Part shown: one piece after another, positions 5,701-20,028 of the stretch
Layout: each line of letters opens with the position of its first letter
Position numbering within the stretch: position 1 is the stretch's first letter
DNA from: an uncultured virus (IMG/VR IMGVR_UViG_3300030060_001926)
Taxonomy: Duplodnaviria > Heunggongvirae > Uroviricota > Caudoviricetes
DNA: 20,250 nucleotides
Direction: 5' to 3' (one strand)
IMG/VR virus record: IMGVR_UViG_3300030060_001926
Coordinates: 62,001 to 82,250 of that record
The notes under the pieces: model-generated
Databases searched by the model: none
What the model was told of the DNA's origin: nothing
The model's input: the letters and a program-made list of their open reading frames with translations, nothing else
Made by a program: the position numbers and the translations under genes

Positions 5701-6742
5701 TGCCTTCAATACACTCTGCAAAAGTTCTTTCTACTTCTACATCGTAAGGAAACTCTTCTGCAGACTGAGAACCAGCAAAGGTTTTTCTAAAGTCTTCTAT
5801 AGATCTTCTTAAAAATTCACCTTCACCCATATTAACCCAGCCATCAAACCCTGCAAAAACGCCTCCATCAAAAGTACCGGGAGTAGAACTGTCTCTTTCC
5901 GCATCGGCAAAAGATTTAATGACACTTCCTACAATTGTGATAGGGGCTACGTCTGGATTCTCTCTTATTAGTCTGTTAACTTCCATGTTCATGCTACTAT
6001 ATTCTTCAGGATGTGAAGAGATTTCTTCTAAAATAAACTCCTCGTCTAAGTCTGTAATTCCAGTTTGGCTAGATGCTACCATGTCTGCCATGATTAGCCG
6101 GTAATCTTGATCCATCATGTCAGCTACAGCCTTACTTTGTTCTGGATCTAAGTAACCCAAGTCACTCCTAGATTTTGTAGCTAATGCCTTTGCTGTCCAG
6201 CCTTTAATTTTATTATGCCTTTCTTTAATTAACTCAGCTTCCGTTTCAGCTTCGTATTCTGCTTCTGCTGCTCTTTGTTGAGAAACAATAGTTTCAGAGG
6301 TTACTCCGTGAGAGCGAAGCCACCAAGGCATTTCTGGGCTTAGCTGCTGGTATCTTTGAGCAGGAGAGGAACCTAGCTTTGGTTGTGTATCGAATAATTC
6401 GCTCGTTTTATATAGGGGTGTCTTGTCAGGAAAGACATAAGGAATATCTAAATCCATAGGACCTAAGCTTGGAAGAGGGAAACCTGCTTCAGGATCTGAC
6501 GGAGTAAGGTTTAAAAATTCCTTTTGCATTTCGTACAGTTCTTCTAATTCTTTTTGTTCTTCTCTGCTTCTTCCAAAGTTATTAAACCTATAGAGTAATT
6601 CATCATCATCCATTTTATTCAATTGAGGGTAATAAATACTTTCATCGCCTTGTCCCGCTCTGTATCCTTTGTAAAGCTCGTTTCTTACTCTGTCTCTGTT
6701 AGGATCATAGCCTTCTGTAAATCCAGTAATGTTACTACTCAT
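2738..6742 (-). CDS. Large acidic alpha-helical protein, 1334 aa; probable ejection protein (gp15-like by position)
   Basis: The start is reassigned from the TTG at 6796 to the ATG at 6742 (MSSNITGF...), which is preceded by GGAGGA-TTGATTCA. It lies between the gp14-like and gp16-like genes. No enzymatic motif recognised. Confidence 0.65.
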   Translation of the reverse strand: MSSNITGFTEGYDPNRDRVRNELYKGYRAGQGDESIYYPQLNKMDDDELLYRFNNFGRSREEQKELEELYEMQKEFLNLTPSDPEAGFPLPSLGPMDLDIPYVFPDKTPLYKTSELFDTQPKLGSSPAQRYQQLSPEMPWWLRSHGVTSETIVSQQRAAEAEYEAETEAELIKERHNKIKGWTAKALATKSRSDLGYLDPEQSKAVADMMDQDYRLIMADMVASSQTGITDLDEEFILEEISSHPEEYSSMNMEVNRLIRENPDVAPITIVGSVIKSFADAERDSSTPGTFDGGVFAGFDGWVNMGEGEFLRRSIEDFRKTFAGSQSAEEFPYDVEVERTFAECIEGIEGHCIALEGTDYDVLEVLYDTGAFSDKEMIAIAQKRVNDRKIKEGIETEELLSKEQTAQILKTAKVDSQITDKDNLPKIRNKLMNLTNVLMDLIGFESRGVDVTTQHKEALDILREARVVLPQLEGESFGETLQRSLKAFNDNVLIKFNRRSQMLTTDRGKYELATINSFKKYVSSDINSYQDVQQAVYSAIYDTDPDMTINRKLAIIELYNNGRAAFKRMQSGRNSTNGTVNEIELMIRNSDGSTATTKKEQTDLGLFEPPKSGRDTNTWNQYVLERHKHHSDQMVQMMFPPDPAEEVTPEEQAQRKRMVDEVFRIKQIGSGQIGLEIDWNTANPMVIPGILGYWLDYAEKTNVTDLGPMLKGFGQQVKEGLDILGTEELDASTEQGRATIRKAFKAVSTLGFFYSSGNTGDKKAKQIKDFMGWQDGDYAAYRTVLLALKASGNEQLRNMANFYSLDTRTREQIANNEQVQTTTITAWQRDSNQMARAMFSSLANRAGGAQTTLTPARRNSIDSLYIDRFLDSFILPNPFDDETVGSQFFGIFGGGVPGEVRDVTDAPGFNTSIKSPLTGLDVDGLDKARHVLQAAFPATRFTEFKAEDWTKLNNTMAATLGMSSKTLEKMKERFVDSLFRVDSVGGEMWTMGEDPQAEMLSYMLIREFLQNNTVRDNLRQYTNNRAAYTSQIPLSIEEVLSVGAYMYKGLEGISPAASISIAKDGGGVFSYASPTADTGFMEKLQLVDVPESLLDNTHDTAMNETFARMPFNPSGTMQSSLESQYLIAENNPSVDLMRAQAVQMGLDENTYNKIAKKAIEAAMNAPDSTPLHVVHLGIMGAILEETEKLRVAQGDNTVASFFGLTKDVLSTQYVEELDRAPMIHNITEMSNPKWWANYAMQIPTMFMFEMIGYFTDTDPVSRLLDDRTIRQSIPSVKVEFYSPTPGSLNTNTGTGDEHIFRVRYTPEGVDSKGKSIKERVASFPFIKFKGEDHK

Positions 6743-6746
6743 TGAA

Positions 6747-7136
6747 TCAATCCTCCCCCCCAAAGAAACTACCTGCGCCGCCTTCTTGCCCGCCAATAGA
6801 ACCAGCTCCGAAATAACCGGTCTCTAGTAAACCTAACTGTGCGTCAGTAGCTCCCATAGCTTTTGCGTATTGTTGTTTAGCTAGCCGTAGTTCTTGTTGT
6901 CTTTTTCTTTGTTCTTTTGCTTTCCTTAAGTCTTCGAAATCCTCAATCATTTTATTCGCAGAATTCATAACAGAATTAATAGCCGAAAACATGTAAGCGG
7001 TGGCTGGATTGTTTGCGTTCCACGCTCCAAAGACCATGCCCTCTTCGTTAATCATCGCGGTACTAGTCTGAGGGGCTTCAGGCATTGACCCTTCAATTTG
7101 AATAGTCTGAGCGGCATAATTAGGAATACTTGCCAT
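6747..7136 (-). CDS. Hypothetical protein, 129 aa, with a coiled coil and Gly-rich tail; probable internal virion protein
   Basis: RBS GGAGG-TTAAACG-ATG and a 17-nt overlap with the upstream gene. Contains the helical segment EDLRKAKEQRKRQQELRLAKQQ. Confidence 0.72.
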   Translation of the reverse strand: MASIPNYAAQTIQIEGSMPEAPQTSTAMINEEGMVFGAWNANNPATAYMFSAINSVMNSANKMIEDFEDLRKAKEQRKRQQELRLAKQQYAKAMGATDAQLGLLETGYFGAGSIGGQEGGAGSFFGGED

Positions 7137-8127
7137 CGTTTAACCTCCGAGATAATTTACTAAGTAAGTCTTCGTATTGATTTTTATAATCTAAGAACAT
7201 ATCCTTAGTTGTGGAATACATTCCATTTTCATCGTTGTACTTGACGCTCTCTAGAATAGCAGTAGTTGCAGCCTTAGCTGGATCTCGTTCTTCTAATGAA
7301 CCGTCAATGATTACGTTAGATCTAAATTCTTTAGGGATTTCTCCCTTTTTAATTCTATTGAATAAAGCTTTTTTAGTTTTTCTTTCGATCATGTTTTGTT
7401 CTGATCTAGATTCTTTAAGCATAGGTTTGAACCTATCTTTAACAACACCCCTTAAATCATTTAAAGAAATAAACTCTTCTTCCATACTAAGCTCTGGGTT
7501 TTGTAAAGTATACACGGGAACTCTTTTGCCGTCAAGGGGGACTGACAAACGTCCTGATTCATCTGTTTCAATTTCCCCTCTGTAACCCATGTCATAAGCC
7601 TTGACCATTTCTTCTGAGTGAGCTTCGATACTAACATTAGGATCTAAAGAAAACTTTTTATTTCTTAACATATCTTTTATTTCCATAATCTGTGTCATTC
7701 TATTTCTTTCTAGTTCTTTCCCTGCGTTTGCCCCTCTAATATTAGTGAAGTATCCACCTAAGTTTTCTAATACGTATCCCGGCCAAGTTGCTGCGTTATC
7801 TCTAAAGTAATTTTCTTTGTCCTCCATTGTGGACATTCTATCAATAGTTTTCCTAATGTCTTTAGTAGTAAAGTCTTGGAACTCTTTTGATTCCATAGGA
7901 CTTATTTTTTCTAAAGTATCCCAGTAGTAGTCAGTGTTATTGGAGGTGAATCCCCAGTTAGAAAACTCTTTTAACCACTCACTTGTCATATCTTTGTTGT
8001 TTAAATTAGAATGAGTTAGTAACCAGTCTTCAGATTTATTAATTTGAGCTTGACCAAAGGTATCGCTCTTGTCTGGGGTTTCAGCATTTCCTGACCCTAC
8101 TATTTCTCTAAGTTTATCTATAGACAT
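7120..8127 (-). CDS. Hypothetical charged helical protein, 335 aa; probable internal virion protein
   Basis: The start is reassigned from the track's 8295 to the ATG at 8127 (MSIDKLREIV...). It is preceded by GGAGG-TTAAA and lies 1 nt after the gp14-like stop. Function is inferred from position only. Confidence 0.7.
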   Translation of the reverse strand: MSIDKLREIVGSGNAETPDKSDTFGQAQINKSEDWLLTHSNLNNKDMTSEWLKEFSNWGFTSNNTDYYWDTLEKISPMESKEFQDFTTKDIRKTIDRMSTMEDKENYFRDNAATWPGYVLENLGGYFTNIRGANAGKELERNRMTQIMEIKDMLRNKKFSLDPNVSIEAHSEEMVKAYDMGYRGEIETDESGRLSVPLDGKRVPVYTLQNPELSMEEEFISLNDLRGVVKDRFKPMLKESRSEQNMIERKTKKALFNRIKKGEIPKEFRSNVIIDGSLEERDPAKAATTAILESVKYNDENGMYSTTKDMFLDYKNQYEDLLSKLSRRLNDGKYS

Positions 8128-8128
8128 T

Positions 8129-8839
8129 TTAACCTCCCATAGGTGCAGGTGGACCCATGCCACCCGGACCAAATCCCATTGAAGCCCAAATAGCATTAGT
8201 TTGATCAGCCATACCACCCATTCGTTCGTTATGTGCTGCTTTCTGCGCCGCTGCGCCAGCAAAAGCCATGCCGCCTTGAAGAATACCTTGACCAATTGCC
8301 ATGTTCATAATATTACCAGACTGATCAGGCATTTGCATTCCGGGCATGTATTGAATTTGATCATTATACCCAAAGTTTCTTTTGCCTAATTCAGCTTGCT
8401 GCTGTCTTTCAGAAGATCTTAATTGATTTTCATAAGTTAATCTTTTGTTAACGCTTGCTTTTTTAGCTGACTCTAAAGATTGCCTCATTAGCTGTTTAGC
8501 AGTCTGACCTTTAATATTCTTGCCGTTCAAATAACCAAGGAGCCTATCATTGGTTGCGTTCATATTTCTACTAAACTCTCCGGTCTCATTATTATAATTC
8601 AACCTAAGATAGTAGTCTCTCTCAGCCCTTGACTTGTTTGCAGCTTGAGCAATGAATTTATTTTGCTGCCACTGTTGAGCATTCTTCTTAGCAATTTGCC
8701 GATTCTTCTTTTGAATCTGCATTTTCTGTTCAAACTCAGCCCAATCCTGCTGCTGTTTCTGAACTTTAGCATCATTACTAGCTTGCATTCCGCCCATAAT
8801 TGCAGAAGCAGCCATCATGCCGCCCATAATTAATGGCAT
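8129..8839 (-). CDS. Internal virion / ejection protein (T7 gp14-like), 236 aa
   Basis: Short hydrophobic Gly/Ala N-terminus (MPLIMGGMMAASAIMGGMQA), a long Gln/Ala-rich helical middle, and a second Gly/Ala hydrophobic segment (MAIGQGILQGGMAFAGAAA). This is typical gp14 architecture. RBS GAGGAGG. Confidence 0.7.
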   Translation of the reverse strand: MPLIMGGMMAASAIMGGMQASNDAKVQKQQQDWAEFEQKMQIQKKNRQIAKKNAQQWQQNKFIAQAANKSRAERDYYLRLNYNNETGEFSRNMNATNDRLLGYLNGKNIKGQTAKQLMRQSLESAKKASVNKRLTYENQLRSSERQQQAELGKRNFGYNDQIQYMPGMQMPDQSGNIMNMAIGQGILQGGMAFAGAAAQKAAHNERMGGMADQTNAIWASMGFGPGGMGPPAPMGG

Positions 8840-8915
8840 ATTAAACCTCCTCAGAGCCTTTGTAAGGCGTTGTAGTAATTTAGGTAGGTCACCCTGTAGA
8901 ATCCTTTAGGATGGC

Positions 8916-10613
8916 TTAGGACCAGCCTCTGGCTCTCCTATAGCCTGTCCACTTTGATCGGTTCTGATCGTAAGGTTTCTTAGGCTCTGGTCGGACCAAT
9001 CTGACAGCACCTGAGGTTCCATTTAAGAATAACCCCGCCCGTCTGTCGTCGTGTTCCCAAGTTTTAATTAAGTCTTGATATTCTTTTTCCTTATTTCTTT
9101 CAATAACTTTATCAACGTCTACGCTAAGAAAGTCTTCCCAGTGTGAAACAGCTGCTGACAGACAATCGATACGGTCATCCTTTGGCAGTGCTCCTCTCTT
9201 GTCAAAAATTCTTGTAATTTGTTTTTGATTCTCTTCTTGACAAATAACTCTTCTGTCCATAACTAACCTGTGCTGTGCCATGACAGGTTCCAACGCATCA
9301 ATTATCCGTGCTTCCTTGCGTCCAGATACCCTGTACTCTTCTACGGCAACAGGCCCACATATCTGATGTACAATCGGCAAAAGTAATTGCGAATACATTC
9401 CATCGCCAAAGTTAGATTCAACTTTAATAACTTGAACCTGATAATCTCTCGCAAGCTTAGCTATTTTAGTTAAGATATTTTTTTCATATCCGCCCGGATA
9501 ACCTATCATCTCGTGGATATAAACGTAGCCGTTACAGAAGGATGCGACACATACTGCCGTCTCGTCTTCACCTCTGCCACTAGGATCTACTGTAAGAATT
9601 CTTTGAGAGTATTCAATAAAAGTTCCTGAAACCCACATGGGTTCATACACAACGTCTCCACTAAGACCAAAGCTTGGTATACCTTTCATCTTAGTACTGT
9701 TTGCCCATACAATTTTATCTGGACAAATATTAGGATCTAAGTCAAGCACGATAAGATCTGATAATCTTAATGGGAATTTCTCAAAGTCAGCAAGAGACGT
9801 ATCTAATTTATAGTGCAAAGCAAATGACTTAGGCCCAATCTTTGCTTGGCGTTCCATTAGAAGTTCTATAGGAAATCTTTCTGGTTGAACTGGATCCCCT
9901 TCTACCATACTAGAAGAAATTAAAAATTCATTAATGTCCTCCATCTCTGTTTCATCATTTCTATTAGGCATAACCGCAGGAAACTTTGTTACTTTATAAC
10001 CCGATTTTAACTGATTATATATAGAATCTTTAATTTGAGGTGTCCCTAAGAAGATAACTCTACCACCCACATTTCTAATCTGTTCAAACTCTCCAACCTT
10101 GTTCATTAACTTTTGTCTAGCTGCTGCAGTTTCACAGTTACCTTCTATCTCTACATCATCCGCAATAACATACTCGGCGTGAGATCCTGTAAGTTGTGAA
10201 GTAATACCGCGAGCAAAACAAGATTTATCTTGACCGACTTTAGTCCTACACTCCACATTAAACGCAAACGCATTGTCTGAAGTGTGGTCGCCCGGTCTTA
10301 GGTGGCTACAGTATGGGACTAAGTCTAAAATTTTTCTTGTCATAGAAATAAACTCAGCTGCTTTATTACTGGTTGCTGAGACAACCATGATTGTTGTATT
10401 TGGGTCCTTTAAAAGAAACCACGAAGCGAGGCACGAAGTAATCACAGACTTGCCAAAACCACGACCCGCTTGTAACTGCATGTCATTACCGAAGTTCTGA
10501 AGAGCGTCTGCCATTGCATACTGGGCAGGCGTAGGCTCACCTATACCAAGGTACTTGAAACAAGCCCATAGGTGATTCCTAAAGTCCTCTAACATCTCTT
10601 CGGGTATGTTCAT
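8916..10613 (-). CDS. terL: Terminase large subunit (T7 gp19-like DNA maturase B), 565 aa
   Basis: PTPAQY adenine-binding motif, Walker A QAGRGFGKS, GITSQLTGSHA, Walker B VIADDVE, coupling motif FLGTPQ, and RNase H-like nuclease motifs VDPSGRGEDET, VESNFGDGM, KEARIIDALEP and DDRIDCL. All are characteristic of T7-type TerL. Confidence 0.97.
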   Translation of the reverse strand: MNIPEEMLEDFRNHLWACFKYLGIGEPTPAQYAMADALQNFGNDMQLQAGRGFGKSVITSCLASWFLLKDPNTTIMVVSATSNKAAEFISMTRKILDLVPYCSHLRPGDHTSDNAFAFNVECRTKVGQDKSCFARGITSQLTGSHAEYVIADDVEIEGNCETAAARQKLMNKVGEFEQIRNVGGRVIFLGTPQIKDSIYNQLKSGYKVTKFPAVMPNRNDETEMEDINEFLISSSMVEGDPVQPERFPIELLMERQAKIGPKSFALHYKLDTSLADFEKFPLRLSDLIVLDLDPNICPDKIVWANSTKMKGIPSFGLSGDVVYEPMWVSGTFIEYSQRILTVDPSGRGEDETAVCVASFCNGYVYIHEMIGYPGGYEKNILTKIAKLARDYQVQVIKVESNFGDGMYSQLLLPIVHQICGPVAVEEYRVSGRKEARIIDALEPVMAQHRLVMDRRVICQEENQKQITRIFDKRGALPKDDRIDCLSAAVSHWEDFLSVDVDKVIERNKEKEYQDLIKTWEHDDRRAGLFLNGTSGAVRLVRPEPKKPYDQNRSKWTGYRRARGWS

Positions 10614-10744
10614 TTCTTTTTCCTACTAGGGGTTGGATTGTATTTAGGTGAAAGCTTGTAGTTATTATGCTTCTTAATTCCTTCAGCTTCTTTACCTTCC
10701 ATACGAGTGGTTGTACCACACGCACATTTAAATTTATGAGCCAT
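10610..10744 (-). CDS. Basic microprotein 6, 44 aa (MAHKFKCACGTTTRMEGKEAEGIKKHNNYKLSPKYNPTPSRKKK)
   Basis: Not in the ORF track. RBS AGGAGA-ACTATA-ATG. Its stop overlaps the terL start (ATGA). Contains an HxFxCxCG motif. Confidence 0.78.
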   Translation of the reverse strand: MAHKFKCACGTTTRMEGKEAEGIKKHNNYKLSPKYNPTPSRKKK

Positions 10745-10754
10745 TATAGTTCTC

Positions 10755-11606
10755 CTAGAATTGGTTCTTACCTAATTGAATATACCATGAACCTGATCCA
10801 GTCCATTTACTTGCAAGATAGTTATTAATAGCGGTAGCTTGTGTGCCGTTAGTAGATAAGTCTAGCCTTACTTTATCAAGCGAACCGGATGATTCACTAA
10901 AGTCTGCGTCACTAAAGTCCCACTCAGTAATATCACCGCCAGTTAATTCTTTTAAAATTAAAACTTTATTTGCATCAGAAGAAGCTAGCCAGTCAGCTTT
11001 AATTTGTGTTCCGTTGCTAGTAGTTGTAGCTAAACTAAGTTTTACTCCGTGATCTCCATTACCTTCAAAATAGTTTTGTGTGGTATTGTCCTGTAATTTA
11101 ACCCATCCATTATCTCCATCTGATCCACCTATAAAAGATTGAGCCGTTGAACTATTATCTCTGTACCACCCAACTTGATCAGCGTACGTAGAAGTATCTG
11201 CTTCTATAGTCATTTGATTCTTTGGAGCACTTCCTAAACCACTTGTATCATCAGTAGCTGTGTCTTCTTTCATCTTTGTCCATACAATAGCATCGTCAAC
11301 AAGAGCAGCAGTAGCATCAATAATGCCACGACCATCGCTAATCATTTTAGTAATAATTGCATTCATGCCTGAAGTCTTTGCATCCATGCCAGTAAACAGA
11401 CCATGAAGAACAGCTAGTGCTTCGTTTTTGCTAGGGTACTGTGTACCTATAAGCCTGTCCTCATTTACTTTTAAATACCACATATTAGTACTAGCGTTCT
11501 TTCTTATTTCAAACATACCAATGTATTCATTTCTATGATTATTGGAAGCAATGCCTCTAGTTTTTTTATAGTTAGTAGCTGCATCTACAAATTGTCCTGC
11601 GGTCAT
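10755..11606 (-). CDS. Hypothetical protein, 283 aa; possible virion accessory protein with a beta-rich, S/T/D/G-rich C-terminal domain
   Basis: Long ORF with an ATGA overlap with the previous gene and an AGGAG RBS. Its TAG stop overlaps the AGGAGA RBS of the next gene. No recognisable catalytic motif. Confidence 0.75.
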   Translation of the reverse strand: MTAGQFVDAATNYKKTRGIASNNHRNEYIGMFEIRKNASTNMWYLKVNEDRLIGTQYPSKNEALAVLHGLFTGMDAKTSGMNAIITKMISDGRGIIDATAALVDDAIVWTKMKEDTATDDTSGLGSAPKNQMTIEADTSTYADQVGWYRDNSSTAQSFIGGSDGDNGWVKLQDNTTQNYFEGNGDHGVKLSLATTTSNGTQIKADWLASSDANKVLILKELTGGDITEWDFSDADFSESSGSLDKVRLDLSTNGTQATAINNYLASKWTGSGSWYIQLGKNQF

Positions 11607-11824
11607 TTCTTACTCCTTTTCTTTTTCCAGCTAATCCTACCCGGACCTTTCTTCCTATTCTTAGCTGAAGTACATTGAGCTTTAGTAGGGCGACAAGCGG
11701 GGTAAGGCCGCTTGCTTTTCCCCTTAGCTGATTTTCTACCGCAAGGTTTACCTGTTTTACAATCGATCCAACCCTTACCCTTGTTTCTACCAAACCATTT
11801 TTTTAAGCCTTCTTTTTTAGCCAT
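11603..11824 (-). CDS. Basic Cys-containing small protein 5, 73 aa (possibly DUF5872-related)
   Basis: GLKKWF...WIDCKTGKPCGRKSA...KRPYPACRP has 4 Cys. TAATG overlap upstream and ATGA overlap downstream. The family link is from memory only. Confidence 0.85.
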   Translation of the reverse strand: MAKKEGLKKWFGRNKGKGWIDCKTGKPCGRKSAKGKSKRPYPACRPTKAQCTSAKNRKKGPGRISWKKKRSKK

Positions 11825-11958
11825 TACTTCTTCTTCTTGGCAGGCTTCTTATGTCCATACCCTTTGTTTTTTAAAGCAAGATGCTCTTTAAATGTATTGG
11901 CTTTTTTTGACACACCCTTTGGAGAGTACATCATATGCGGTTTAAACTTCTTTGCCAT
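11824..11958 (-). CDS. Basic His-containing microprotein 4, 44 aa (MAKKFKPHMMYSPKGVSKKANTFKEHLALKNKGYGHKKPAKKKK)
   Basis: Not in the ORF track. TAATG overlaps at both ends (11958 and 11824), so it fills the gap exactly. 15 Lys and 3 His. FKPHMMY...EHL..K..GY.H is a motif recalled from marine phage hypothetical proteins. Confidence 0.82.
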   Translation of the reverse strand: MAKKFKPHMMYSPKGVSKKANTFKEHLALKNKGYGHKKPAKKKK

Positions 11959-12113
11959 TATTTTTTCCCCTTAGATTTATTGCCCCAGTTCTTTGCACCT
12001 ACCTTTCGGCACTTAACTAAAGCCCCCGAAGCGTAGGCACTAGGCCATTTGGTGTATCGGCTTTTAACCTTATGATAACATGCGTCCCGTTTTGCTTTCT
12101 TTTTTTTAGCCAT
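11958..12113 (-). CDS. Basic small protein 3, 51 aa (MAKKKKAKRDACYHKVKSRYTKWPSAYASGALVKCRKVGAKNWGNKSKGKK)
   Basis: The start is reassigned from the track's 12149 to the ATG at 12113, which overlaps the previous stop (TAATG). DACYHKVK..Y..WPSAYASGALVKCRK is a motif I recognise from marine and cyanophage hypothetical proteins. Confidence 0.85.
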   Translation of the reverse strand: MAKKKKAKRDACYHKVKSRYTKWPSAYASGALVKCRKVGAKNWGNKSKGKK

Positions 12114-12382
12114 TAGTTTGTACACTTCCATTTCTTTCGAGCTAAGCAAGCTCTCTTCTTAGGAGTTTTTCGGCAATCGATATTAAACTTTTTAATTTGC
12201 CCCTTGTTTCTAGCGCAGAACGAACGTTTGCGTGGACCACCTCCCGGTTGCGGGGCTTTAAGTTTAGATCCGGTTTTTCTATTAATCATTCCTCGGCCCT
12301 TTGCGGTTAGGCCACCAGTCTTTGACTTACATCCGTTTTTAATAGTACAACCTTTCATCCCTCCCTTTTTCTTTTTAGCCAT
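12113..12382 (-). CDS. Basic Cys-rich small protein 2, 89 aa (recalled as DUF6321-like)
   Basis: KSKTGGLTAKGR...TGSKLKAP...RKRSFCAR...KKWKC is a motif I recognise from uncharacterised marine phage proteins. The family name is from memory and unverified. It has 6 Cys and a TAATG overlap with the next gene. Confidence 0.85.
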   Translation of the reverse strand: MAKKKKGGMKGCTIKNGCKSKTGGLTAKGRGMINRKTGSKLKAPQPGGGPRKRSFCARNKGQIKKFNIDCRKTPKKRACLARKKWKCTN

Positions 12383-12385
12383 GAC

Positions 12386-12511
12386 TCACCCCATCTTCTT
12401 ATAAGAATTCATCTTTCGCTTCTTACCGGCTGCTGGTTTCTTTTTTTTATCGTAACCCGCTTTCTTGCTGTCTTTCTTAGCCATAGCTGGCTTTGCTTTT
12501 GCGTATGCCAT
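12386..12511 (-). CDS. Lysine-rich microprotein 1, 41 aa (MAYAKAKPAMAKKDSKKAGYDKKKKPAAGKKRKMNSYKKMG)
   Basis: Not in the ORF track (below the size cutoff). ATG overlaps the terS stop (TAATG) and is preceded by AGGAGG. It fills the gap to the next gene, leaving 3 nt. 15 of 41 residues are Lys. Confidence 0.8.
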   Translation of the reverse strand: MAYAKAKPAMAKKDSKKAGYDKKKKPAAGKKRKMNSYKKMG

Positions 12512-12723
12512 TATCCTACCTCCTTTTTAAATGGAATTGAATCTGTAAATTTACCCTCTAGAAACTCTAAAGCTTCCTTCGGAATGTCTTCTAATGTTTC
12601 TTTATTGTCTGTAATGACACCTCTAACTACCTGATATAAACCGGGAGTACACTTAGTAGGGTCATTTAAATCATCCATTAAACATTGCATAAGCATGTCA
12701 TTAAGTTTTTCTACTTTATTCAT
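12511..12723 (-). CDS. Terminase small subunit (T7 gp18-like), 70 aa
   Basis: LMDDLNDPTKCTPGLYQVV aligns by eye with T7 gp18 MLADLSDHERRSPQLYNAI. Small and acidic, located after the tail fibre and upstream of terL. GAGG RBS upstream. Confidence 0.8.
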   Translation of the reverse strand: MNKVEKLNDMLMQCLMDDLNDPTKCTPGLYQVVRGVITDNKETLEDIPKEALEFLEGKFTDSIPFKKEVG

Positions 12724-12741
12724 AATTTAATTTACCTCTTA

Positions 12742-15700
12742 TTAACCGCCATAATAGTTGTTGTACCATTTATTATGAGCACCATTAGTAAAGTAGTCCG
12801 CATCGTTCGAGCCTTGGGTATACCAAGGCCAAACGTCTGTTGAGTTATCATGGAGATGCGTTCTTTCAAAAATACTTCTACCACTATTACTTTCTGATAT
12901 ATACGTATATATAGGGTATCTAAAATCTCGTATACAGTTGCCAGTAATATCACACCTGTTAAATGTTTTATTATCTAGTGGATCGCTGCTATTTCCGAAA
13001 ATCATTCCGTGAGAAGACGTAGACATATTAGTGCCTGAAGGATACGGTCCGTCTCCTTTGACAATATTCCCTACAACATTCATGTGTTCTACAAATGATT
13101 GAACTTGATTAGTCTCGCATTGTGCTTTAACCCAAATTCCTCTAAAATTGCTTTCATACCAATCCTTTTCAGACGATACTTCGGTCCCTCCTTGTCTCGT
13201 AGCTCCATTAAATAAACCGGCAACCCTTCGAAACGCAGCAGCAGCATGTATGTGGTTGTTAGTAATTTCAAGTCCGTTTACATTCTCATTCCCAAGATTT
13301 TTTAAAGCATTTGAAAGATACAATGCTTGAAGGCCATATAAAGTACAGTCTTTAATTTTAATTCTATTGGCAACTGGCATAATTTCAGTGGCAATTGTGC
13401 TCCTTGTCCAATAGCCTCTGATTGCAGAAGAAATTCCTGCTATATTACACTCTGAAACCTCTATCCCACTGTTTAAACTAATAGTGAATTGTTGTTCGGT
13501 AGTACCCATGTATAGCTCAGATCCATTTTCATAAGTACAGGTAAGAACCTTAACAGTGTCGTACCATACAGGAACATAGCCATCAGTCAAAACCTGTCCA
13601 CCGAGTTGCATTCCGTCACCATTCCCCCAGAAAGCCGATGCGCTAAAAACATTGTCTCCGCTAACGAAGCCTCCAACTCTAACAAGTTTGTTAATGTTGC
13701 ATCTTTTTAATTCAAAATGCTCTACTCCACAAACTCTTGAATTATATTTATAGATTTCAATTGCTGATGAATTATAAGAACCGTCTTTATAGTCTTGGTT
13801 TCCATATGGGTCGTCAAAATATCTAGGTGCAGGCCTGTTAGGATTTGGAACAAAAGGAGTAATGTCGCAATCAGTTATTTTTAAAGAGCCATAAATAAAG
13901 GCTCCGCCACACTTGAAAGCACAAACAGAATTTATGTTACAGTTAGTAATATCAATGTTACTGCACCCAAGATATTGCGTCTCACTGTGAGCAGTAGCAG
14001 ACCCTACGTCTACAAATACCGCAACAGTACAAGATTCAAAAGTACAGTCTTTAATTTTAATATTCGAACTAGCCTTTAATCTAATACAAGAACTAAGGTG
14101 ACTAACATTCATGTAGCTACTTCCTCTGCAGTTTTTAAACTTGCAGTTTTCAAAAGTTACATCCTTACAATTTTCTATCAATACAGCATACTCACCATTA
14201 AAGTTTTCAAATACACAATCTCTAAATATAATGTCGCTTCCGTTTTTAATATGAACACCAGAATGCCTAGACTGAGTTACGTAAGCCTTATCTCCTCCAT
14301 AGTTTGCAGAATCAGCGGCAGCAGAAGCCATTGTGCTTACAAAAGTGTCGGCATCTGTAGCACCAGTCAGTGTCATCCATCTGTTAATGTCTCCTGACTT
14401 AGCAACTTTGTGTGTTACTCCGTCTCCTCCAAGATCTGCATCTTGTACTAAGATAGCACCTCCACCACTTTGGTTCATTCCGTGACCTGTAGGTACTTGG
14501 AATGCAAGAGTAGTATTAGCAGTAGTTGTAAATGGAGTAGTACTTTGATCAAAGTCATTTAAGTAAACTGTTTTACCTAATAAGTCTTTAAACCTCATGT
14601 TTAAGAAAGTGACATTTTCAATTTGATTAGCACCGTTTGTGCCTTCTCCCGATCTTTCTACTAAAGATCCTGACTTAATCTTACAAGCTGGGGCTTCATC
14701 TATAATTAAAGAATCACCATCAGTTGAGTCATTAATACCTATAACCTTTGCTAAGTGATACTGAGCGTGTTCTGTAACTGTGTCAGCATCCTCCTTTGTT
14801 TTTACATTTATTAACGCATCGCCAATAATTCTAATTAAATCTCCTATAGCAAAGTTAGCTACATCAGCTACCTTCATAACAGTATCGCCCGGATATAGTT
14901 CTGCAGCAGTTGTTGTTTGAAGTTGAGTAGTTGTTCCGGGTTTAAGAACTTGTTTGTCCATGCAAGCATTGTATGATATAAAAATACCACCGTCCTTAAG
15001 GGTAAGGTGTCTTTTACAAGGCATGACTAATTCTTCGGGGGTTCCATCGGTAGATAAAATAGCGTGGTTTCTGCCTCTAAAGTTTAAGATAGAAGTAGTA
15101 GAGCTAGATGATGCTGTTGTTTGTCCTAGAGTTCCACTAGTCAAGGCGGAGTTAACAGCGGTGTAATCGTGTGTTGCTCCGTCTGCTGTACCTCCCACAA
15201 CGCTATCATAAGCTACGCTACTAACAGTGCTAGCTGCCCACCTACTATTTCCGTGATCCCAAGTTAAAGATTGCCCATCGGATGGACTCATAGAATCATA
15301 GACATCGCTTAGAGCTTTAATGGAAGATCCTGTAGTTAAAACCTTTTCGCCAGAACCAAATGAATTTTCTAACTGAATAGGTTCCCAAGAGTTCCCATCA
15401 TAGTAGACCATATCATTACCTGTTGGAGATGTGTCATCTACGTATACGCCACTGAGTTCATCGAACGTAGTATTAACAATAGCATCTTCTACGTATTCGC
15501 AAGTAGCTGCTTCTCGTTCTGTTCCATCAGAGTTATTGCCAACATTAGCTGTAGGAGTAGCTGCAATCTTTTGACCATCTGCTAAATCTACAGAACCATC
15601 TCCTAGCACTGCTGTAGAGGCGTTGACAATCTGCCAAGCTGAACCGTTATATCTAATTAGGTTTCCGTTAGCAACGCTACCTACTCCCCAGCTAGAGTCA

Positions 15701-16635
15701 GCTGTTCCTGAGCCTCCGTTATGCCCTACGGTTACACCTGCTGACAGAGTCCCAATACTAGCTGCTGAAACAGTAGTGTCAATTACATTGAAAGCACCCT
15801 TGTATACAATGCCTGTACCCAAAGAAGTGACAGCGTCATTTAGAAGCTTACCTTGATTAGCCGACAAAGGCTGAGTAGTAGAAGTACTTGTTACATTATC
15901 TTGAGTATTTACCTTAAGACCAGAAGTTCCTTGGCCTAAAGAATCTCCATCTAAGTTAATAGTCAAAGGAGAAGATGCTGTACCAGATCCAGACACTCCA
16001 TTGGCCGAAATAATACCAAGAGTTGTTCCATCAATAAATGCTGGGTCAATTGTTCCGCTAGAGTTTAATACTAAGATACCATTAGGTCTACCTACAGAAG
16101 GGTTCAATGTATGGAAGTTTTTAAAGTAGGTCATTAGTTCTTGGCATATTGTCAATAACTGCTGAGATCCTACATTTAAATTCTTACTGCTAATCTTTGA
16201 ACCAGAAGACCAAGTAACTAGGCCACCTACATTGTGGACTTTCTTAAGAACATAGATAGTATCGCTTGAGGAAAGAGCGGGCAATGCTACCGCCGCCGCT
16301 CGTCCAGACATAGTAGTAGTCCACGAGTAATCCGAGTCTGTTTGAGAGAAAGTAATTGTGCCTCCGCTTAGAGTGTACATTGTACTTCCGCTGGTAGAGC
16401 TATTAGGCAGCGTGTAAGCAGCCCAAGCTTCATCTGCTGTAATAGCCGGACTAATACTGCTGGTATCAAACTTCCTTACAACGATAATTTCATCCTCATT
16501 GTTTAGAGTTGACGCTAAATCTGAAGATGAGTCAAGGATACTGCTAATGTCTATAGTATAACCATCAGCAATAACTTCAGTACCTGTCTTAGTTATTAAG
16601 TTGACCTTATCGTCGTTGTTAGTATACGATGCCAT
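12742..16635 (-). CDS. Tail fibre/tailspike, 1297 aa: T7 gp17-type N-terminal adaptor, fibre repeats, C-terminal right-handed beta-helix (pectin-lyase-like, putative polysaccharide-binding or depolymerase domain)
   Basis: Adaptor motif IYVLKK...LVTWSSGSKISSKNLNVGSQQLLTICQE resembles gp17 LVDFTDGSILRAYDLN..QIQ..EE. Fibre motifs QDNVTSTSTTQPLSANQGKLL and LSDV...DGQSLTWD. Beta-helix cap GGTADGATHDYTAVNSAL and rungs HIKNGSDIIFRDCVF, IENCKDVTFENCKF, SSNIKIKDCTF, CSNIDITNCNI. RBS AGGAGA overlaps the upstream stop codon. Confidence 0.88.
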   Translation of the reverse strand: MASYTNNDDKVNLITKTGTEVIADGYTIDISSILDSSSDLASTLNNEDEIIVVRKFDTSSISPAITADEAWAAYTLPNSSTSGSTMYTLSGGTITFSQTDSDYSWTTTMSGRAAAVALPALSSSDTIYVLKKVHNVGGLVTWSSGSKISSKNLNVGSQQLLTICQELMTYFKNFHTLNPSVGRPNGILVLNSSGTIDPAFIDGTTLGIISANGVSGSGTASSPLTINLDGDSLGQGTSGLKVNTQDNVTSTSTTQPLSANQGKLLNDAVTSLGTGIVYKGAFNVIDTTVSAASIGTLSAGVTVGHNGGSGTADSSWGVGSVANGNLIRYNGSAWQIVNASTAVLGDGSVDLADGQKIAATPTANVGNNSDGTEREAATCEYVEDAIVNTTFDELSGVYVDDTSPTGNDMVYYDGNSWEPIQLENSFGSGEKVLTTGSSIKALSDVYDSMSPSDGQSLTWDHGNSRWAASTVSSVAYDSVVGGTADGATHDYTAVNSALTSGTLGQTTASSSSTTSILNFRGRNHAILSTDGTPEELVMPCKRHLTLKDGGIFISYNACMDKQVLKPGTTTQLQTTTAAELYPGDTVMKVADVANFAIGDLIRIIGDALINVKTKEDADTVTEHAQYHLAKVIGINDSTDGDSLIIDEAPACKIKSGSLVERSGEGTNGANQIENVTFLNMRFKDLLGKTVYLNDFDQSTTPFTTTANTTLAFQVPTGHGMNQSGGGAILVQDADLGGDGVTHKVAKSGDINRWMTLTGATDADTFVSTMASAAADSANYGGDKAYVTQSRHSGVHIKNGSDIIFRDCVFENFNGEYAVLIENCKDVTFENCKFKNCRGSSYMNVSHLSSCIRLKASSNIKIKDCTFESCTVAVFVDVGSATAHSETQYLGCSNIDITNCNINSVCAFKCGGAFIYGSLKITDCDITPFVPNPNRPAPRYFDDPYGNQDYKDGSYNSSAIEIYKYNSRVCGVEHFELKRCNINKLVRVGGFVSGDNVFSASAFWGNGDGMQLGGQVLTDGYVPVWYDTVKVLTCTYENGSELYMGTTEQQFTISLNSGIEVSECNIAGISSAIRGYWTRSTIATEIMPVANRIKIKDCTLYGLQALYLSNALKNLGNENVNGLEITNNHIHAAAAFRRVAGLFNGATRQGGTEVSSEKDWYESNFRGIWVKAQCETNQVQSFVEHMNVVGNIVKGDGPYPSGTNMSTSSHGMIFGNSSDPLDNKTFNRCDITGNCIRDFRYPIYTYISESNSGRSIFERTHLHDNSTDVWPWYTQGSNDADYFTNGAHNKWYNNYYGG

Positions 16636-16644
16636 TGCATTCTC

Positions 16645-19362: not shown

Positions 19363-19365
19363 AGA

Positions 19366-20028
19366 TTATCCCCTGTTAGAAGTTCGCCAGTACCTAAGTG
19401 CTTGTGAAGACCTAGGATAATCATTCCGAGATCTAGCTGCTTGCAGTTTAGCCGAGGCAGCAGTAAACACAGATCTCCTTCTATCATCTAGATCAGCAGC
19501 TTTACCTTTACTTTGATAAAACATTTCCATTTCTTTAAGATAGTTATCAGCATCTCCGTCACCTTGAGTAACTAGCTGGTATTGACGAGCAGCTGAAGAT
19601 AGTATAGCTCTTTGTACAGGTGTATCCATGTCCTCCCAAGGAAGAGAAAGAATCAATTCATATCTGTATTCTGTATTAGTATCCCACTCATCACTTTGAT
19701 CCGTAACATTCCAAAGGTATTTGTTTGTGCCTGTACCTTTTAAGATACCAATAATATTATAACCATCGTTGTTATTATGAAAGCTAATAAGCTCTGCTGA
19801 AATAGCATCTGCATTAATTACGATTTTGCCCTTAGCATCTAGTGTAATTTTTTTAATCAGTTTATTGTTTGCAATGCCTCGGATTTGAAAGTCCCTGACA
19901 AATTGATCAAGAACAAACAAAGCAGTTTCGGTATCAAGCCCCGAGTTTTCATCTAGATCAGGAACTAAGGATTCTCCTGCCATCAGAAGCATGTGATTTA
20001 CTGCGTCAAGTTTACTAATGTCTCCCAT
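19366..20028 (-). CDS. Tail tubular protein A / gatekeeper-adaptor (T7 gp11-like), 220 aa
   Basis: N-terminal SKLDAVNHMLLMAGESLV matches the gp11 ELxAVNxMLxxIGExPV motif. LPWEDMDTPVQRAILSSAARQYQ matches the gp11 C-terminal motif. It has a strong RBS and follows the capsid gene. Confidence 0.92.
   Translation of the reverse strand: MGDISKLDAVNHMLLMAGESLVPDLDENSGLDTETALFVLDQFVRDFQIRGIANNKLIKKITLDAKGKIVINADAISAELISFHNNNDGYNIIGILKGTGTNKYLWNVTDQSDEWDTNTEYRYELILSLPWEDMDTPVQRAILSSAARQYQLVTQGDGDADNYLKEMEMFYQSKGKAADLDDRRRSVFTAASAKLQAARSRNDYPRSSQALRYWRTSNRG

What the first reader, a model, noticed from the sequence alone, without database searches (positions are those of the whole stretch)
10610..12511. 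Cassette of six highly basic microproteins translationally coupled between terS and terL
Seen: between the small and large terminase genes lie six tiny ORFs (41, 89, 51, 44, 73 and 44 aa) and one 283-aa ORF. They are chained with almost no gaps (TAATG overlaps at 12511, 12113, 11958 and 11824; ATGA overlaps at 11603-11606 and 10610-10613). Three are invisible to the ORF track. Four start MAKK, four end in KK-type tails, and the two I counted are about one-third Lys (15/41 and 15/44). The cores are unrelated, so these are not simple duplicates. Known: in T7 this interval holds the spanin genes 18.5/18.7, and T7 has no described set of protamine-like proteins. Inference: stoichiometric co-expression with the packaging motor suggests an undescribed genome-condensation or packaging-accessory system, such as basic peptides co-packaged to neutralise DNA or a small hetero-oligomeric nucleic-acid-binding complex. 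RNA or ribosome binding in late infection is an alternative. This is the best candidate for a novel system in the window.
Basis: partly seen in the sequence, partly recalled or inferred. Interest (0 to 1): 0.85.

Follow-up and report, generated by a model that had tools for sequence, protein, structure and literature searches.

The report
Split basic mini-protein cassette, marine podophage
Between the two DNA-packaging genes of an uncultured marine T7-like phage sits a movable row of tiny, very positively charged genes; the same building blocks are joined into one long particle protein in unrelated ocean phages, so they are probably carried in the phage particle, perhaps bound to its DNA, though nobody has shown what they do.

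Summary
Six chained ORFs of 41-89 aa and one acidic 283-aa ORF lie between a terS-like gene and TerL, with the stated overlaps. They are 27-39% Lys+Arg, against 11.5% for the contig's larger proteins.

Five of the six are real genes: p51 and p73 have saturated synonymous sites but conserved protein (pN/pS 0.016/0.62 and 0.10/0.70). p41 is unproven.

They are not orphans:
- p89 is Pfam DUF6321.
- p51 and p73 are the two halves of DUF5872.
- p44a is a further module of the same virus-only network.

In T4-like cyanophages these modules are fused, behind acidic linkers, into T4-GC119-type proteins. Such proteins were found by mass spectrometry in purified S-SM1 and S-CREM2 virions, and their genes also lie between terS and terL.

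The link to the packaging motor is not supported. The terS-TerL gap is a hot spot. The closest relative and a 98%-complete relative lack these modules. A second cassette on the same contig sits between the portal and scaffold genes.

Best reading (about 0.45): mobile, late-expressed, virion-associated nucleic-acid-binding mini-proteins. This scan had already noted the fused form on other DNA.

The parts
12511..12723 (-). p70, probable small terminase subunit (T7 gp18-like). It marks the upstream border of the cassette.
   Evidence: PF11123 DNA_Packaging_2 scores 23.9 bits, below the 27.5 cut-off. phrog_1351 terS has E 0.0012. The gene is conserved at 42-76% identity just upstream of TerL in 13 relatives.
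12386..12511 (-). p41, a 41-aa Lys-rich ORF (15 K, net +14) with KPAA-like low complexity. Its coding status is unproven.
   Evidence: It has a TAATG overlap with p70 and an AGGAGG motif upstream. It gave no family or homologue. The two X2 differences within it are non-synonymous by my reading.
12113..12382 (-). p89, a stand-alone DUF6321 domain protein (net +29, 6 Cys).
   Evidence: PF19846 scores 55.1 bits against a 28.5 cut-off. It is 43% identical over 74 aa to the C-terminus of the S-SM1 virion protein GC119. The AF2 model has pLDDT 80.9 and three helices. The Cys pairs are invariant or co-occurring.
11958..12113 (-). p51, the N-terminal-half module of DUF5872 (core motif ...WPSAYASGALVKCRK...), net +17.
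   Evidence: phrog_727 has E 1.4e-20. It is 84% identical over 44 aa to S-SM1 GC119. At least 8000 longer protein clusters carry the module. pN is 0.016 against pS 0.62.
11824..11958 (-). p44a, a His/Met-containing basic module (F-x-P-H-M-M-Y ... G-Y-G-H).
   Evidence: Homologues occur in L019 (76%) and L022 (73%). The same module is fused to other modules in P0024, P0393, P0395 and P0396.
11603..11824 (-). p73, the C-terminal-half module of DUF5872 (4 invariant Cys, net +26).
   Evidence: hhalign against the DUF5872 alignment A1 gives probability 99.7% and E 1.5e-25. pN is 0.10 against pS 0.70. Homologues occur in roseophages, a Prochlorococcus podovirus and flavophages.
10755..11606 (-). p283, an acidic 283-aa protein of unknown family inside the cassette. 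It is variable and probably an independent passenger.
   Evidence: It gave no family or phage homologue. It has a weak 25% match to a relative's fibre gene. A 537-nt stretch inside it is skipped in the X2 contig.
10610..10744 (-). p44b, a 44-aa basic protein with a conserved K-F-K-C-A-C-G-T-T motif.
   Evidence: Homologues sit at the same place in L006, L019 and L022. It gave no hit in GenBank phages.
8916..10613 (-). TerL, the T7-type large terminase. It marks the downstream border of the cassette.
   Evidence: PF22530 has E 2.2e-36 and phrog_38 has E 3.1e-94.

Best explanation
The cassette is a mobile accessory set of late genes. It encodes stand-alone copies of small, cationic, Cys- or His-bearing modules from a virus-only modular network (DUF6321, the two halves of DUF5872, the p44a module and the p44b module).

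In T4-like cyanophages the same modules are strung together behind acidic linkers in one protein (T4-GC119 type). That protein is found in purified virions, and the head protease plausibly cuts it at (I/L/V)-x-E sites. A T7-like phage has no such protease, so here each module is its own gene, translationally coupled within the fibre-terS-TerL late operon.

Most likely the products associate with the virion, binding the packaged DNA as counter-ions or travelling with it into the cell. Paired cysteines would stabilise them once the particle is in oxidising seawater.

Shown: the genes are real and constrained; module homology; split and fused forms; virion presence of fused relatives; accessory status.

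Inferred: virion presence of the split proteins; nucleic-acid binding; disulfides; protease processing.
For: Real, constrained genes:
- Against the second cassette on the contig, p51 has pN 0.016 and pS 0.62, and p73 has pN 0.10 and pS 0.70. Against L022, p44a has pN 0.13 and pS 0.94.

Module identity:
- p89 is PF19846 at 55.1 bits.
- p73 matches DUF5872 alignment A1 at 99.7% probability.
- p51 is 84% identical to S-SM1 GC119, and p89 is 43% identical to it.
- The p44a module is fused in P0024 and P0395.
- Protein-atlas neighbours of both families are 99-100% viral.

Virion evidence for fused forms:
- Sullivan 2010 (PMC3037559) Supplementary Table 8 lists T4-GC119 as 'Structural protein', Y, 13 counts. 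I assign that column to S-SM1 by matching the gene lengths in the row.
- S-CREM2 ORF137, which ends in DUF6321, is listed in the virion proteome table of PMC10665884.
- Both genes lie between terS and terL.

Split genes match predicted cleavage products:
- An [ILV]xE motif lies within 25 aa upstream of 99 of 122 p51-motif occurrences, against 32% of random windows.
- In P0014, P0015, P0097 and P0100 the residues after L-Q-E or L-G-E are AKKKKAKRDACY, identical to residues 2-13 of p51.

Cysteine pairing in DUF6321:
- C56 and C87 are both present in 42 of 42 sequences.
- C70 and C79 are both present in 12, both absent in 30, and never present singly.

Genomic context:
- Of 80 IMG/VR DUF6321 loci, 35 have a named head, packaging or tail gene as the nearest large neighbour. 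In 12 of these the gene lies directly after the T7-type scaffold gene.
- MPP-C cyanopodoviruses, which per passages read in PMC9860041 have the smallest cyanophage genomes and no AMGs, still keep the cassette between scaffold and capsid genes.
Against: - No direct evidence places the stand-alone proteins of any T7-like phage in virions. The cryo-EM paper on P-SCSP1u has no hit for 'mass spectrom', 'SDS-PAGE', 'core protein', 'unassigned' or 'hypothetical protein'.
- The window proteins have no capsid-targeting-like leader. No protease was found among the 58 proteins of the contig that were scanned. The route into a T7-type capsid is therefore unknown.
- The virion detections concern long fusions. 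Tryptic peptides probably came from their non-basic parts, and S-CREM2 ORF137 coverage was only 4.1%.
- Syn9 encodes GC119, but no peptide was detected.
- In 9 of 80 loci the only annotated large neighbours are replication, endonuclease or AMG genes.
- The modules often travel with psbA, hli, petE or zwf islands and with homing endonucleases. Their position may therefore reflect permissive insertion sites rather than function.
- The AF2 model of p89 matched no known fold (best Z 3.7). The DUF5872 model was poor, with pLDDT 53.7. No DNA-binding fold is shown.
Confidence: 0.45

Rival explanations
1. The proteins are late intracellular nucleic-acid binders and are not packaged. They would coat or compact replicated phage DNA, bind late mRNAs or ribosomes, or condense the host nucleoid during the late phase, and stay behind at lysis.
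For: - The charge and hydrophilicity are extreme: net +9 to +29 and GRAVY -1.15 to -1.59.
- The genes sit in a late operon with no internal promoter or terminator on the coding strand.
- No capsid-targeting signal is present.
- The N-terminus of p73 weakly resembles the first strands of cold-shock proteins (NCBIfam CspE, E 0.04, residues 1-25).
- Some DUF6321 genes lie among replication genes.
Against: - Fused relatives are in purified virions.
- Strictly paired cysteines fit an oxidising, extracellular life better than the cytoplasm.
- The cold-shock likeness is not recovered by Pfam. None of the 25 DUF5872 members matched a cold-shock family at E up to 10.
Confidence: 0.25
2. This is the first reader's reading: the proteins are a packaging-motor accessory. 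The peptides would work stoichiometrically with TerS and TerL, for example as a hetero-oligomeric DNA-handling complex needed for packaging.
For: - The cassette is translationally coupled between terS and TerL.
- The same slot is used in L006, L019, L022, S-TIP28 and L060.
- GC119-type genes also lie between terS and terL in S-SM1, S-SSM5 and S-CREM2.
- 12 of 13 relatives have some small Lys-rich ORF in this gap.
Against: - The gap content differs in family from phage to phage, and L014 has none.
- The relative with 91% TerL identity and a 98%-complete relative lack the modules entirely.
- In the other half of the same contig, terS and TerL abut and the cassette sits between the portal and scaffold genes.
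- In many T7-like cyanophages the modules lie between scaffold and capsid genes.
Confidence: 0.07
3. The proteins are lysis accessories. They would be cationic peptides occupying the T7 spanin slot and disrupting the outer membrane at the end of lysis, in the manner of a 'disruptin' (the concept is recalled, not from a call).
For: - T7 keeps its spanin genes 18.5/18.7 in this interval (recalled knowledge).
- Four relatives (L005, L007, L013, L017) carry a membrane protein of about 110 aa, with a weak XhlA-like hit (E 0.022), in the same gap next to small Lys-rich ORFs.
Against: - Bulky hydrophobic residues make up only 10-18% of each protein, the maximal helical hydrophobic moment is 0.29-0.41, and there is no transmembrane segment or lipobox.
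- The same modules occur in virion proteins.
- They also occur far from lysis genes.
Confidence: 0.05
4. The small ORFs are non-functional: spurious frames in an A-rich stretch or decaying remnants of a fused gene.
For: - The region has the strongest AT skew of the window (-0.349 at 11501-12500).
- p41 has no homologue.
Against: - The protein sequences are conserved while synonymous sites are saturated.
- Ribosome-binding motifs and start-stop coupling are present.
- The same gene order recurs in L022, whose TerL is only 73% identical.
- Thousands of homologues exist.
Confidence: 0.03

Closest known systems
T4-GC119 'cyanophage-only structural protein' of T4-like cyanomyoviruses (S-SM1 SSM1_115, S-SSM5_108, S-CREM2 gp137)
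   Same: It carries the same modules: the p51 module at 84% identity, DUF6321 at 43%, and a divergent p73-like module. Its gene also lies between terS and terL. It was detected in virions.
   Different: It is one polypeptide of 400-500 aa with acidic linkers and (I/L/V)xE boundaries, in phages that encode a gp21-type head protease. In the window there are separate genes of 44-89 aa, in a different order, with no linkers and no protease found.
Pfam DUF6321 (PF19846) and DUF5872 (PF19197)
   Same: p89 is a full DUF6321 domain. p51 and p73 align to the N-terminal and C-terminal halves of DUF5872-type proteins.
   Different: DUF5872 is normally one protein of about 129-150 aa with an N-terminal leader. 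Here it is split into two genes with p44a between them. Neither family has a described function, and the literature search found only one table listing.
Phage T4 internal proteins IPI-III with capsid-targeting sequence and gp21 processing (recalled knowledge)
   Same: These are small basic proteins loaded into the head and injected with the DNA. The fused cyanophage forms have leader-like N-termini and Glu-ending boundaries.
   Different: There is no sequence relationship. The window proteins start MAKK with no leader, and the phage is T7-like with no protease found. Packaging and injection are untested.
Adenovirus core proteins VII and Mu, and retroviral nucleocapsid protein (recalled knowledge; analogy only)
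   Same: These are small, very basic, partly Cys/His-bearing proteins released from precursors by a viral protease, and they condense the genome inside the capsid.
   Different: They belong to unrelated viruses and sequences. No binding or condensation has been shown here.
T7 gp18.5/gp18.7 spanins (recalled knowledge)
   Same: They occupy the same genomic slot between terS and terL.
   Different: The window proteins have no membrane anchor or lipoprotein signal and are extremely hydrophilic.

Membership tests
Pfam DUF6321 (PF19846) | HMM score at or above the gathering cut-off (28.5 bits) | tested here: met
   p89 scores 55.1 bits, E 1.3e-14, covering profile positions 2-72 of 72.
Pfam DUF6321 (PF19846) | Conserved S-F/Y-C-A-R motif and a C-terminal W-x-C, with both cysteines invariant | tested here: met
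   C56 and C87 of p89 align with Cys in 42 of 42 sequences, and this Cys is the last residue in 27 of 42.
Pfam DUF5872 (PF19197) | HMM score at or above the gathering cut-off (27.5 bits) in one polypeptide | tested here: not met
   p51 scores 17.5 bits and covers only profile positions 11-48 of 116. p73 has no Pfam hit at E up to 1.
Pfam DUF5872 (PF19197) | Homology of each half to the two modules of DUF5872-type proteins | tested here: met
   p73 against alignment A1 gives hhalign probability 99.7% and E 1.5e-25 on the C-terminal half. P0095 was retrieved with p51 as query at 80% identity, and its N-terminal half carries the p51 motif.
T4-GC119 virion protein of cyanomyoviruses | Shares the module sequences | tested here: met
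   Against S-SM1 GC119, p51 is 84% identical over 44 aa (E 7e-25) and p89 is 43% over 74 aa (E 7e-10). p73 is only weakly similar (E 0.013).
T4-GC119 virion protein of cyanomyoviruses | Single multi-module polypeptide with acidic linkers | tested here: not met
   The window has separate genes, each with its own start and stop.
T4-GC119 virion protein of cyanomyoviruses | Present in purified virions | not testable with these tools
   This is shown only for S-SM1 and S-CREM2 in the literature. No data exist for this uncultured phage.
T4-type capsid-targeted internal proteins | N-terminal targeting leader ending in a protease site | tested here: not met
   The six proteins start MAKK, MAY or MAH, followed directly by basic residues.
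T4-type capsid-targeted internal proteins | Head maturation protease encoded by the phage | tested here: inconclusive
   No protease family appeared among the 58 contig proteins scanned against PHROGs and/or Pfam. Not every ORF was scanned, and several have no family.
Spanins (T7 gp18.5/18.7) | Transmembrane helix or lipoprotein signal | tested here: not met
   GRAVY is -1.15 to -1.59 and ILMFVW residues make up 10-18%, with no hydrophobic stretch.
Cationic lysis peptides (disruptin type) | Amphipathic helix with a hydrophobic face | tested here: not met
   The maximal helical hydrophobic moment is 0.29-0.41, with few bulky hydrophobic residues. This is a crude measure, and no reference peptide was compared.

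The most novel reading that the evidence does not exclude
Ocean viruses share a virus-only toolkit of disulfide-stabilised cationic mini-proteins that are loaded into capsids by two routes. T4-like phages would load them as protease-cut 'beads on a string' polyproteins, and T7-like phages as separate micro-genes. Inside the capsid they would act as protamine- or nucleocapsid-like counter-ions for the packed DNA, or as co-injected protectors. The gene starts in this cassette mark the exact cleavage products of the polyproteins.
Probability: 0.3. Interest if true: 0.8.

Novelty: new variant of a known kind. Interest (0 to 1): 0.55.

Why it matters
These modules are among the most widespread uncharacterised viral sequences in seawater. 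DUF5872-type proteins form 2178 clusters, and DUF6321 forms 552 clusters at 50% identity. The modules are found in phages of Prochlorococcus, Synechococcus, SAR11, roseobacters and flavobacteria.

No function is in print. The searches behind that statement were made, which cover open-access papers and bioRxiv only.

The split cassette gives each module as a natural, separately expressible protein, and it predicts the mature ends of the polyprotein forms. Whether tailed phages of the ocean pack protamine-like proteins with their DNA therefore becomes directly testable. If true, it would change how capsid pressure, particle stability in seawater and the first minutes of infection are understood for the most abundant phages on Earth.

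Tried and rejected
- **Structure.** AF2 of the DUF5872 protein P0095 with a 25-sequence alignment gave pLDDT 53.7, so the model was not used. AF2 of p89 was adequate (pLDDT 80.9). Foldseek against the PDB gave nothing at E up to 0.001, and the wide VIA search gave a best Z of 3.7, all generic helical hairpins. No fold assignment was made.
- **Solved structures by sequence.** Nothing meaningful was found.
- **NCBIfam.** The only hit was a weak CspE match to p73 residues 1-25 (E 0.04). Pfam did not recover it on 25 family members, so it is kept as a lead only.
- **GenBank phages by tblastn.** p44a, p44b, p41 and p283 gave no match. BLAST's low-complexity filter may hide short basic matches.
- **Expression.** No RNA holder was listed among the sequencing runs.
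- **Promoter and terminator scan.** Nothing convincing appeared on the coding strand.
- **Earlier-notes look-ups.** The search by place and the search by words returned nothing.
- **Complex prediction.** It was not used. I do not claim that any two of these proteins bind, and the variable linker in DUF5872 argues for independent beads.
- **Literature.** The search for lysine-rich internal proteins and the search for podovirus virion proteomes gave nothing on these proteins. The P-SCSP1u cryo-EM paper had no hit for the mass-spectrometry, SDS-PAGE, core-protein, unassigned or hypothetical-protein terms searched.
- **HNH reading of the relatives' 84-93-aa basic proteins.** I considered them degenerate HNH proteins, but Pfam gave no hit at E up to 1.

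Full report
**1. Observation**

All genes in the window are on the minus strand. From high to low coordinates the order is:
- tail tube A, 19369-20028
- nozzle, 16648-19362
- a 1297-aa fibre, 12742-16635
- a 70-aa terS-like gene, 12511-12723
- p41, p89, p51, p44a, p73, p283 and p44b
- TerL, 8916-10613

The stated TAATG and ATGA overlaps are all present. The other two junctions are gaps of 3 and 10 nt. Lys+Arg is 27-39% in the six small proteins, against 11.5% (sd 3.9) in the 40 minus-strand ORFs of at least 100 aa on the contig. Net charges run from +9 to +29, and GRAVY from -1.15 to -1.59. p283 is acidic, with net charge -10. No promoter-like or terminator-like site of note lies on the coding strand, so the cassette reads as part of one late operon.

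**2. Are they genes?**

I compared the window with a second cassette on the same contig and with locus L022, whose TerL is 73% identical. Synonymous sites are saturated while the proteins are conserved:

| Gene | Compared with | pN | pS | Protein identity |
|---|---|---|---|---|
| p51 | second cassette | 0.016 | 0.62 | 96% |
| p73 | second cassette | 0.10 | 0.70 | 87% |
| p44a | L022 | 0.13 | 0.94 | – |
| p89 | second cassette | 0.24 | 0.79 | – |
| TerL | second cassette | 0.36 | – | 49% |

The small modules are therefore more constrained than the terminase. The synonymous saturation shows this is constraint and not recent transfer.

A contig from a marine metagenome run of a different study (X2) covers TerL through p89 at roughly 98% identity. 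It skips 537 nt inside p283 and keeps the small genes.

p44b has homologues at the same position in L006, L019 and L022. p41 has no homologue anywhere, and both X2 differences in it are non-synonymous by my reading, so I leave it unproven.

**3. What they are**

- p89 is a full Pfam DUF6321 domain, at 55.1 bits.
- p51 hits phrog_727 (E 1.4e-20), and hits DUF5872 below its cut-off.
- The 129-aa protein P0095 (DUF5872) consists of a short leader, the p51 module, a linker of variable length and the p73 module. p73 aligns to its second half with hhalign probability 99.7% and E 1.5e-25.
- The p44a module is fused to other modules in P0024, P0393, P0395 and P0396.

The six 'unrelated' cores are thus separate members of one shuffled network of small basic modules. 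The network is very large:
- 2178 clusters are of DUF5872 type;
- 552 representative clusters carry DUF6321, mostly at the extreme C-terminus of proteins of 85-1860 aa.

Protein-atlas neighbours of both families are 99-100% viral. At the DNA level, 108 phage records matched the 3.9-kb query. Of the 25 rows shown, 24 lie on p51 and one on p89. DUF6321 occurs in 166 GenBank phage records, from Synechococcus, Prochlorococcus, Pelagibacter, Microcystis and other phages. p73 occurs in 11 records, from roseophages, a Prochlorococcus podovirus and flavophages.

**4. Link to virions**

In T4-like cyanophages the modules are fused. S-SSM5_108 (401 aa) and S-SM1 SSM1_115 (495 aa) hold, in order, a p73-like module, the p51 module, a Cys-Trp module and DUF6321. 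This is gene cluster T4-GC119.

The main text of Sullivan et al. 2010 (PMC3037559), read in passages, calls it a hypothetical protein within a possibly mobile cassette with zwf, gnd, petE, PTOX and an endonuclease. Supplementary Table 8, searched and read by row, lists it as 'Structural protein', detected with 13 counts. I assign that column to S-SM1 because the gene lengths in the row match. The same row marks it as absent from S-PM2, and as encoded but not detected in Syn9.

Independently, S-CREM2 ORF137 (108049-109521) ends in DUF6321. It is listed in the virion proteome table of PMC10665884, read in passages, with values 4 and 4.1.

In S-SM1, S-SSM5 and S-CREM2 the gene lies between terS and terL.

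**5. Split versus fused**

I scanned the 120 fused proteins listed. Among the 122 p51-motif occurrences with at least 25 residues upstream, 99 have an [ILV]-x-E within those 25 residues, against 32% of random 25-residue windows from the same proteins. Occurrences nearer the N-terminus were dropped and not counted. The proteins are related to one another, so these are not independent events.

In P0014, P0015, P0097 and P0100 the residues following L-Q-E or L-G-E are AKKKKAKRDACY, identical to residues 2-13 of the window's p51. The independent gene therefore begins where a T4-type head protease would be expected to cut the polyprotein. The cleavage rule is recalled knowledge, and earlier notes of this scan (e1-5885662, e1-5742513) proposed it for the fused form.

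S-SM1 encodes gp21. Among the 58 proteins of this contig scanned against PHROGs and/or Pfam, no protease family appeared.

**6. Cysteines and structure**

In a 42-sequence DUF6321 alignment, two cysteines are invariant. A second pair is present in 12 sequences, absent in 30 and never present singly. The last conserved Cys is the C-terminal residue in 27 of 42. This pairing suggests disulfides, which would fit a life in particles exposed to seawater. That step is inference, and I could not measure distances in the model.

AF2 gives p89 three helices at pLDDT 80.9, with no recognisable fold relative.

**7. Why the packaging-motor reading fails**

Of 19 IMG/VR loci with TerL relatives (57-91% identity), 13 hold both terS and TerL. 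Their gap ranges from 11 to about 2150 nt and its content is hypervariable.
- Window-type modules occur in 3 of the 13 (L006, L019, L022).
- 12 of the 13 have at least one small Lys-rich ORF, but mostly of other families. Four of the 13 (L008, L010, L011, L012) are near-identical.
- L014 has none.
- The closest relative, L004 (TerL 91%), has a single unrelated 38-aa basic ORF.
- p51 and DUF6321 are absent from the whole records of that relative (85% complete) and of a 98%-complete, 65.8-kb relative.

The gap also holds tailspike-like proteins and membrane proteins in other relatives.

On the window's own 82-kb contig a second, more divergent cassette lies at contig positions 22653-23945, between the portal-proximal gene and the scaffold gene. 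It encodes proteins of 77, 41, 88, 51, 71, 53 and 44 aa. There, terS and TerL abut.

Elsewhere the modules sit:
- between scaffold and capsid genes in P-SCSP2 and S-TIP37, in S-TIP37 next to hli and psbA;
- just before TerL in S-TIP28;
- about 2 kb upstream of terS in roseophage CRP-2.

**8. Systematic neighbourhood test**

I took the 80 best IMG/VR DUF6321 loci out of 448 confirmed. The host ORF is at most 130 aa in 65 of the 78 loci where it could be read.

The nearest ORFs of at least 200 aa on each side gave 125 proteins, whose best PHROG categories were:

| Best PHROG category | Proteins |
|---|---|
| head and packaging | 31 |
| tail | 8 |
| auxiliary metabolic | 7 |
| DNA metabolism | 10 |
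| other | 1 |
| unknown-function PHROG | 29 (21 are phrog_12985, several with tail-fibre second hits) |
| no family | 39 |

By locus:

| Nearest large neighbours | Loci (of 80) |
|---|---|
| a named structural gene | 35 |
| phrog_12985 only | 15 |
| only replication, endonuclease, AMG or PhoH genes | 9 |
| only other unknown-function families | 4 |
| nothing annotated | 17 |

In 12 of the 35, the neighbour is the T7-type scaffold gene directly upstream. Five loci have a homing, HNH or EndoVII-type endonuclease as the best-hit neighbour. The association with structural modules is real but not exclusive, and it is confounded by lineage and by known insertion hot spots.

**9. Verdict**

The cassette is a split-gene version of known but uncharacterised viral domain families, not a new family and not a terminase accessory.

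The best-supported mechanism is that these are mobile, late-expressed, virion-associated basic mini-proteins that bind the packaged nucleic acid or travel with it (confidence about 0.45). The main rival is an unpackaged late nucleic-acid-binding role (0.25).

How such proteins would enter a T7-type capsid is unknown, and this is the weakest step. The new contribution here is the correspondence between the stand-alone gene starts and the predicted polyprotein cleavage sites. It makes the hypothesis cheap to test.

Supplements of bioRxiv papers and the figures of the cited papers were not seen. The S-CREM2 supplementary tables were also not read and might give peptide positions.

Noticed in passing
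Whole contig G000:C1 (the window is 62001-82250). The second gene set lies at 3856-19674.: The 82,250-nt contig carries two sets of tube A, nozzle, fibre, terS and TerL genes. The two TerL proteins are only 49% identical. Near-complete relatives are 57-66 kb. The contig therefore looks like more than one genome length, probably a chimeric or concatenated assembly of two related T7-like marine podophages.
   Followed up: partly
G000:C1:22653-23945 (outside the window; L027): A second chain of seven small basic genes (77, 41, 88, 51, 71, 53 and 44 aa) lies between the portal-proximal 355-aa gene and the scaffold gene. It includes homologues of p89 (72%), p51 (96%) and p73 (86%).
   Followed up: yes
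Window 3-2741 is the C-terminal end of G000:C1:50582-64741. Window 2738-6796 follows it.: A 4719-aa ORF and a 1352-aa ORF lie downstream of TerL. Neither has any Pfam or PHROG family. They may be giant internal or ejection proteins moved behind the terminase.
   Followed up: partly
G000:C1:46001-50000: A 4-kb island of 55% G+C sits in a 40% G+C genome. It holds a 617-aa ORF with no family. It may be foreign DNA or the assembly joint.
   Followed up: no
Window 10776-11312: In run X2, one contig skips these 537 nt inside p283 and has two other letters in their place, while the flanking small genes are kept. p283 is therefore variable between close strains.
   Followed up: partly
L005:1538-1885, L007:4549-4878, L013:1155-1490, L017:408-755: Relatives carry proteins of about 110 aa in the terS-TerL gap. 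Each has a Cys-rich N-terminus, a central membrane helix and a C-terminal Pro-x-Pro, hydrophobic stretch and Arg-rich tail. There is a weak XhlA-like hit. They are probably lysis proteins in the T7 spanin slot.
   Followed up: partly
L012:3686-3949, L018:1230-1493, L021:5723-6004, L006:1965-2219 and others: Another conserved family of 84-93-aa, very basic proteins (about 35% Lys+Arg, no Cys) sits directly before TerL in 10 of the 19 relatives. It has no Pfam or NCBIfam hit.
   Followed up: partly
L048, L076, L085, L096, L111 (and L077 by second hit): Homing, HNH or EndoVII-type endonuclease genes are the nearest large neighbours of stand-alone DUF6321 genes. This fits the endonuclease-flanked mobile cassette that Sullivan 2010 described around T4-GC119.
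   Followed up: no
Window 7120-8295 and 8129-8839: The 391-aa (TTG start) and 236-aa ORFs downstream of TerL overlap by 167 nt as listed, so the true start of the 391-aa gene is probably further in. The 236-aa protein is conserved after TerL in 18 of the 19 relative loci.
   Followed up: no
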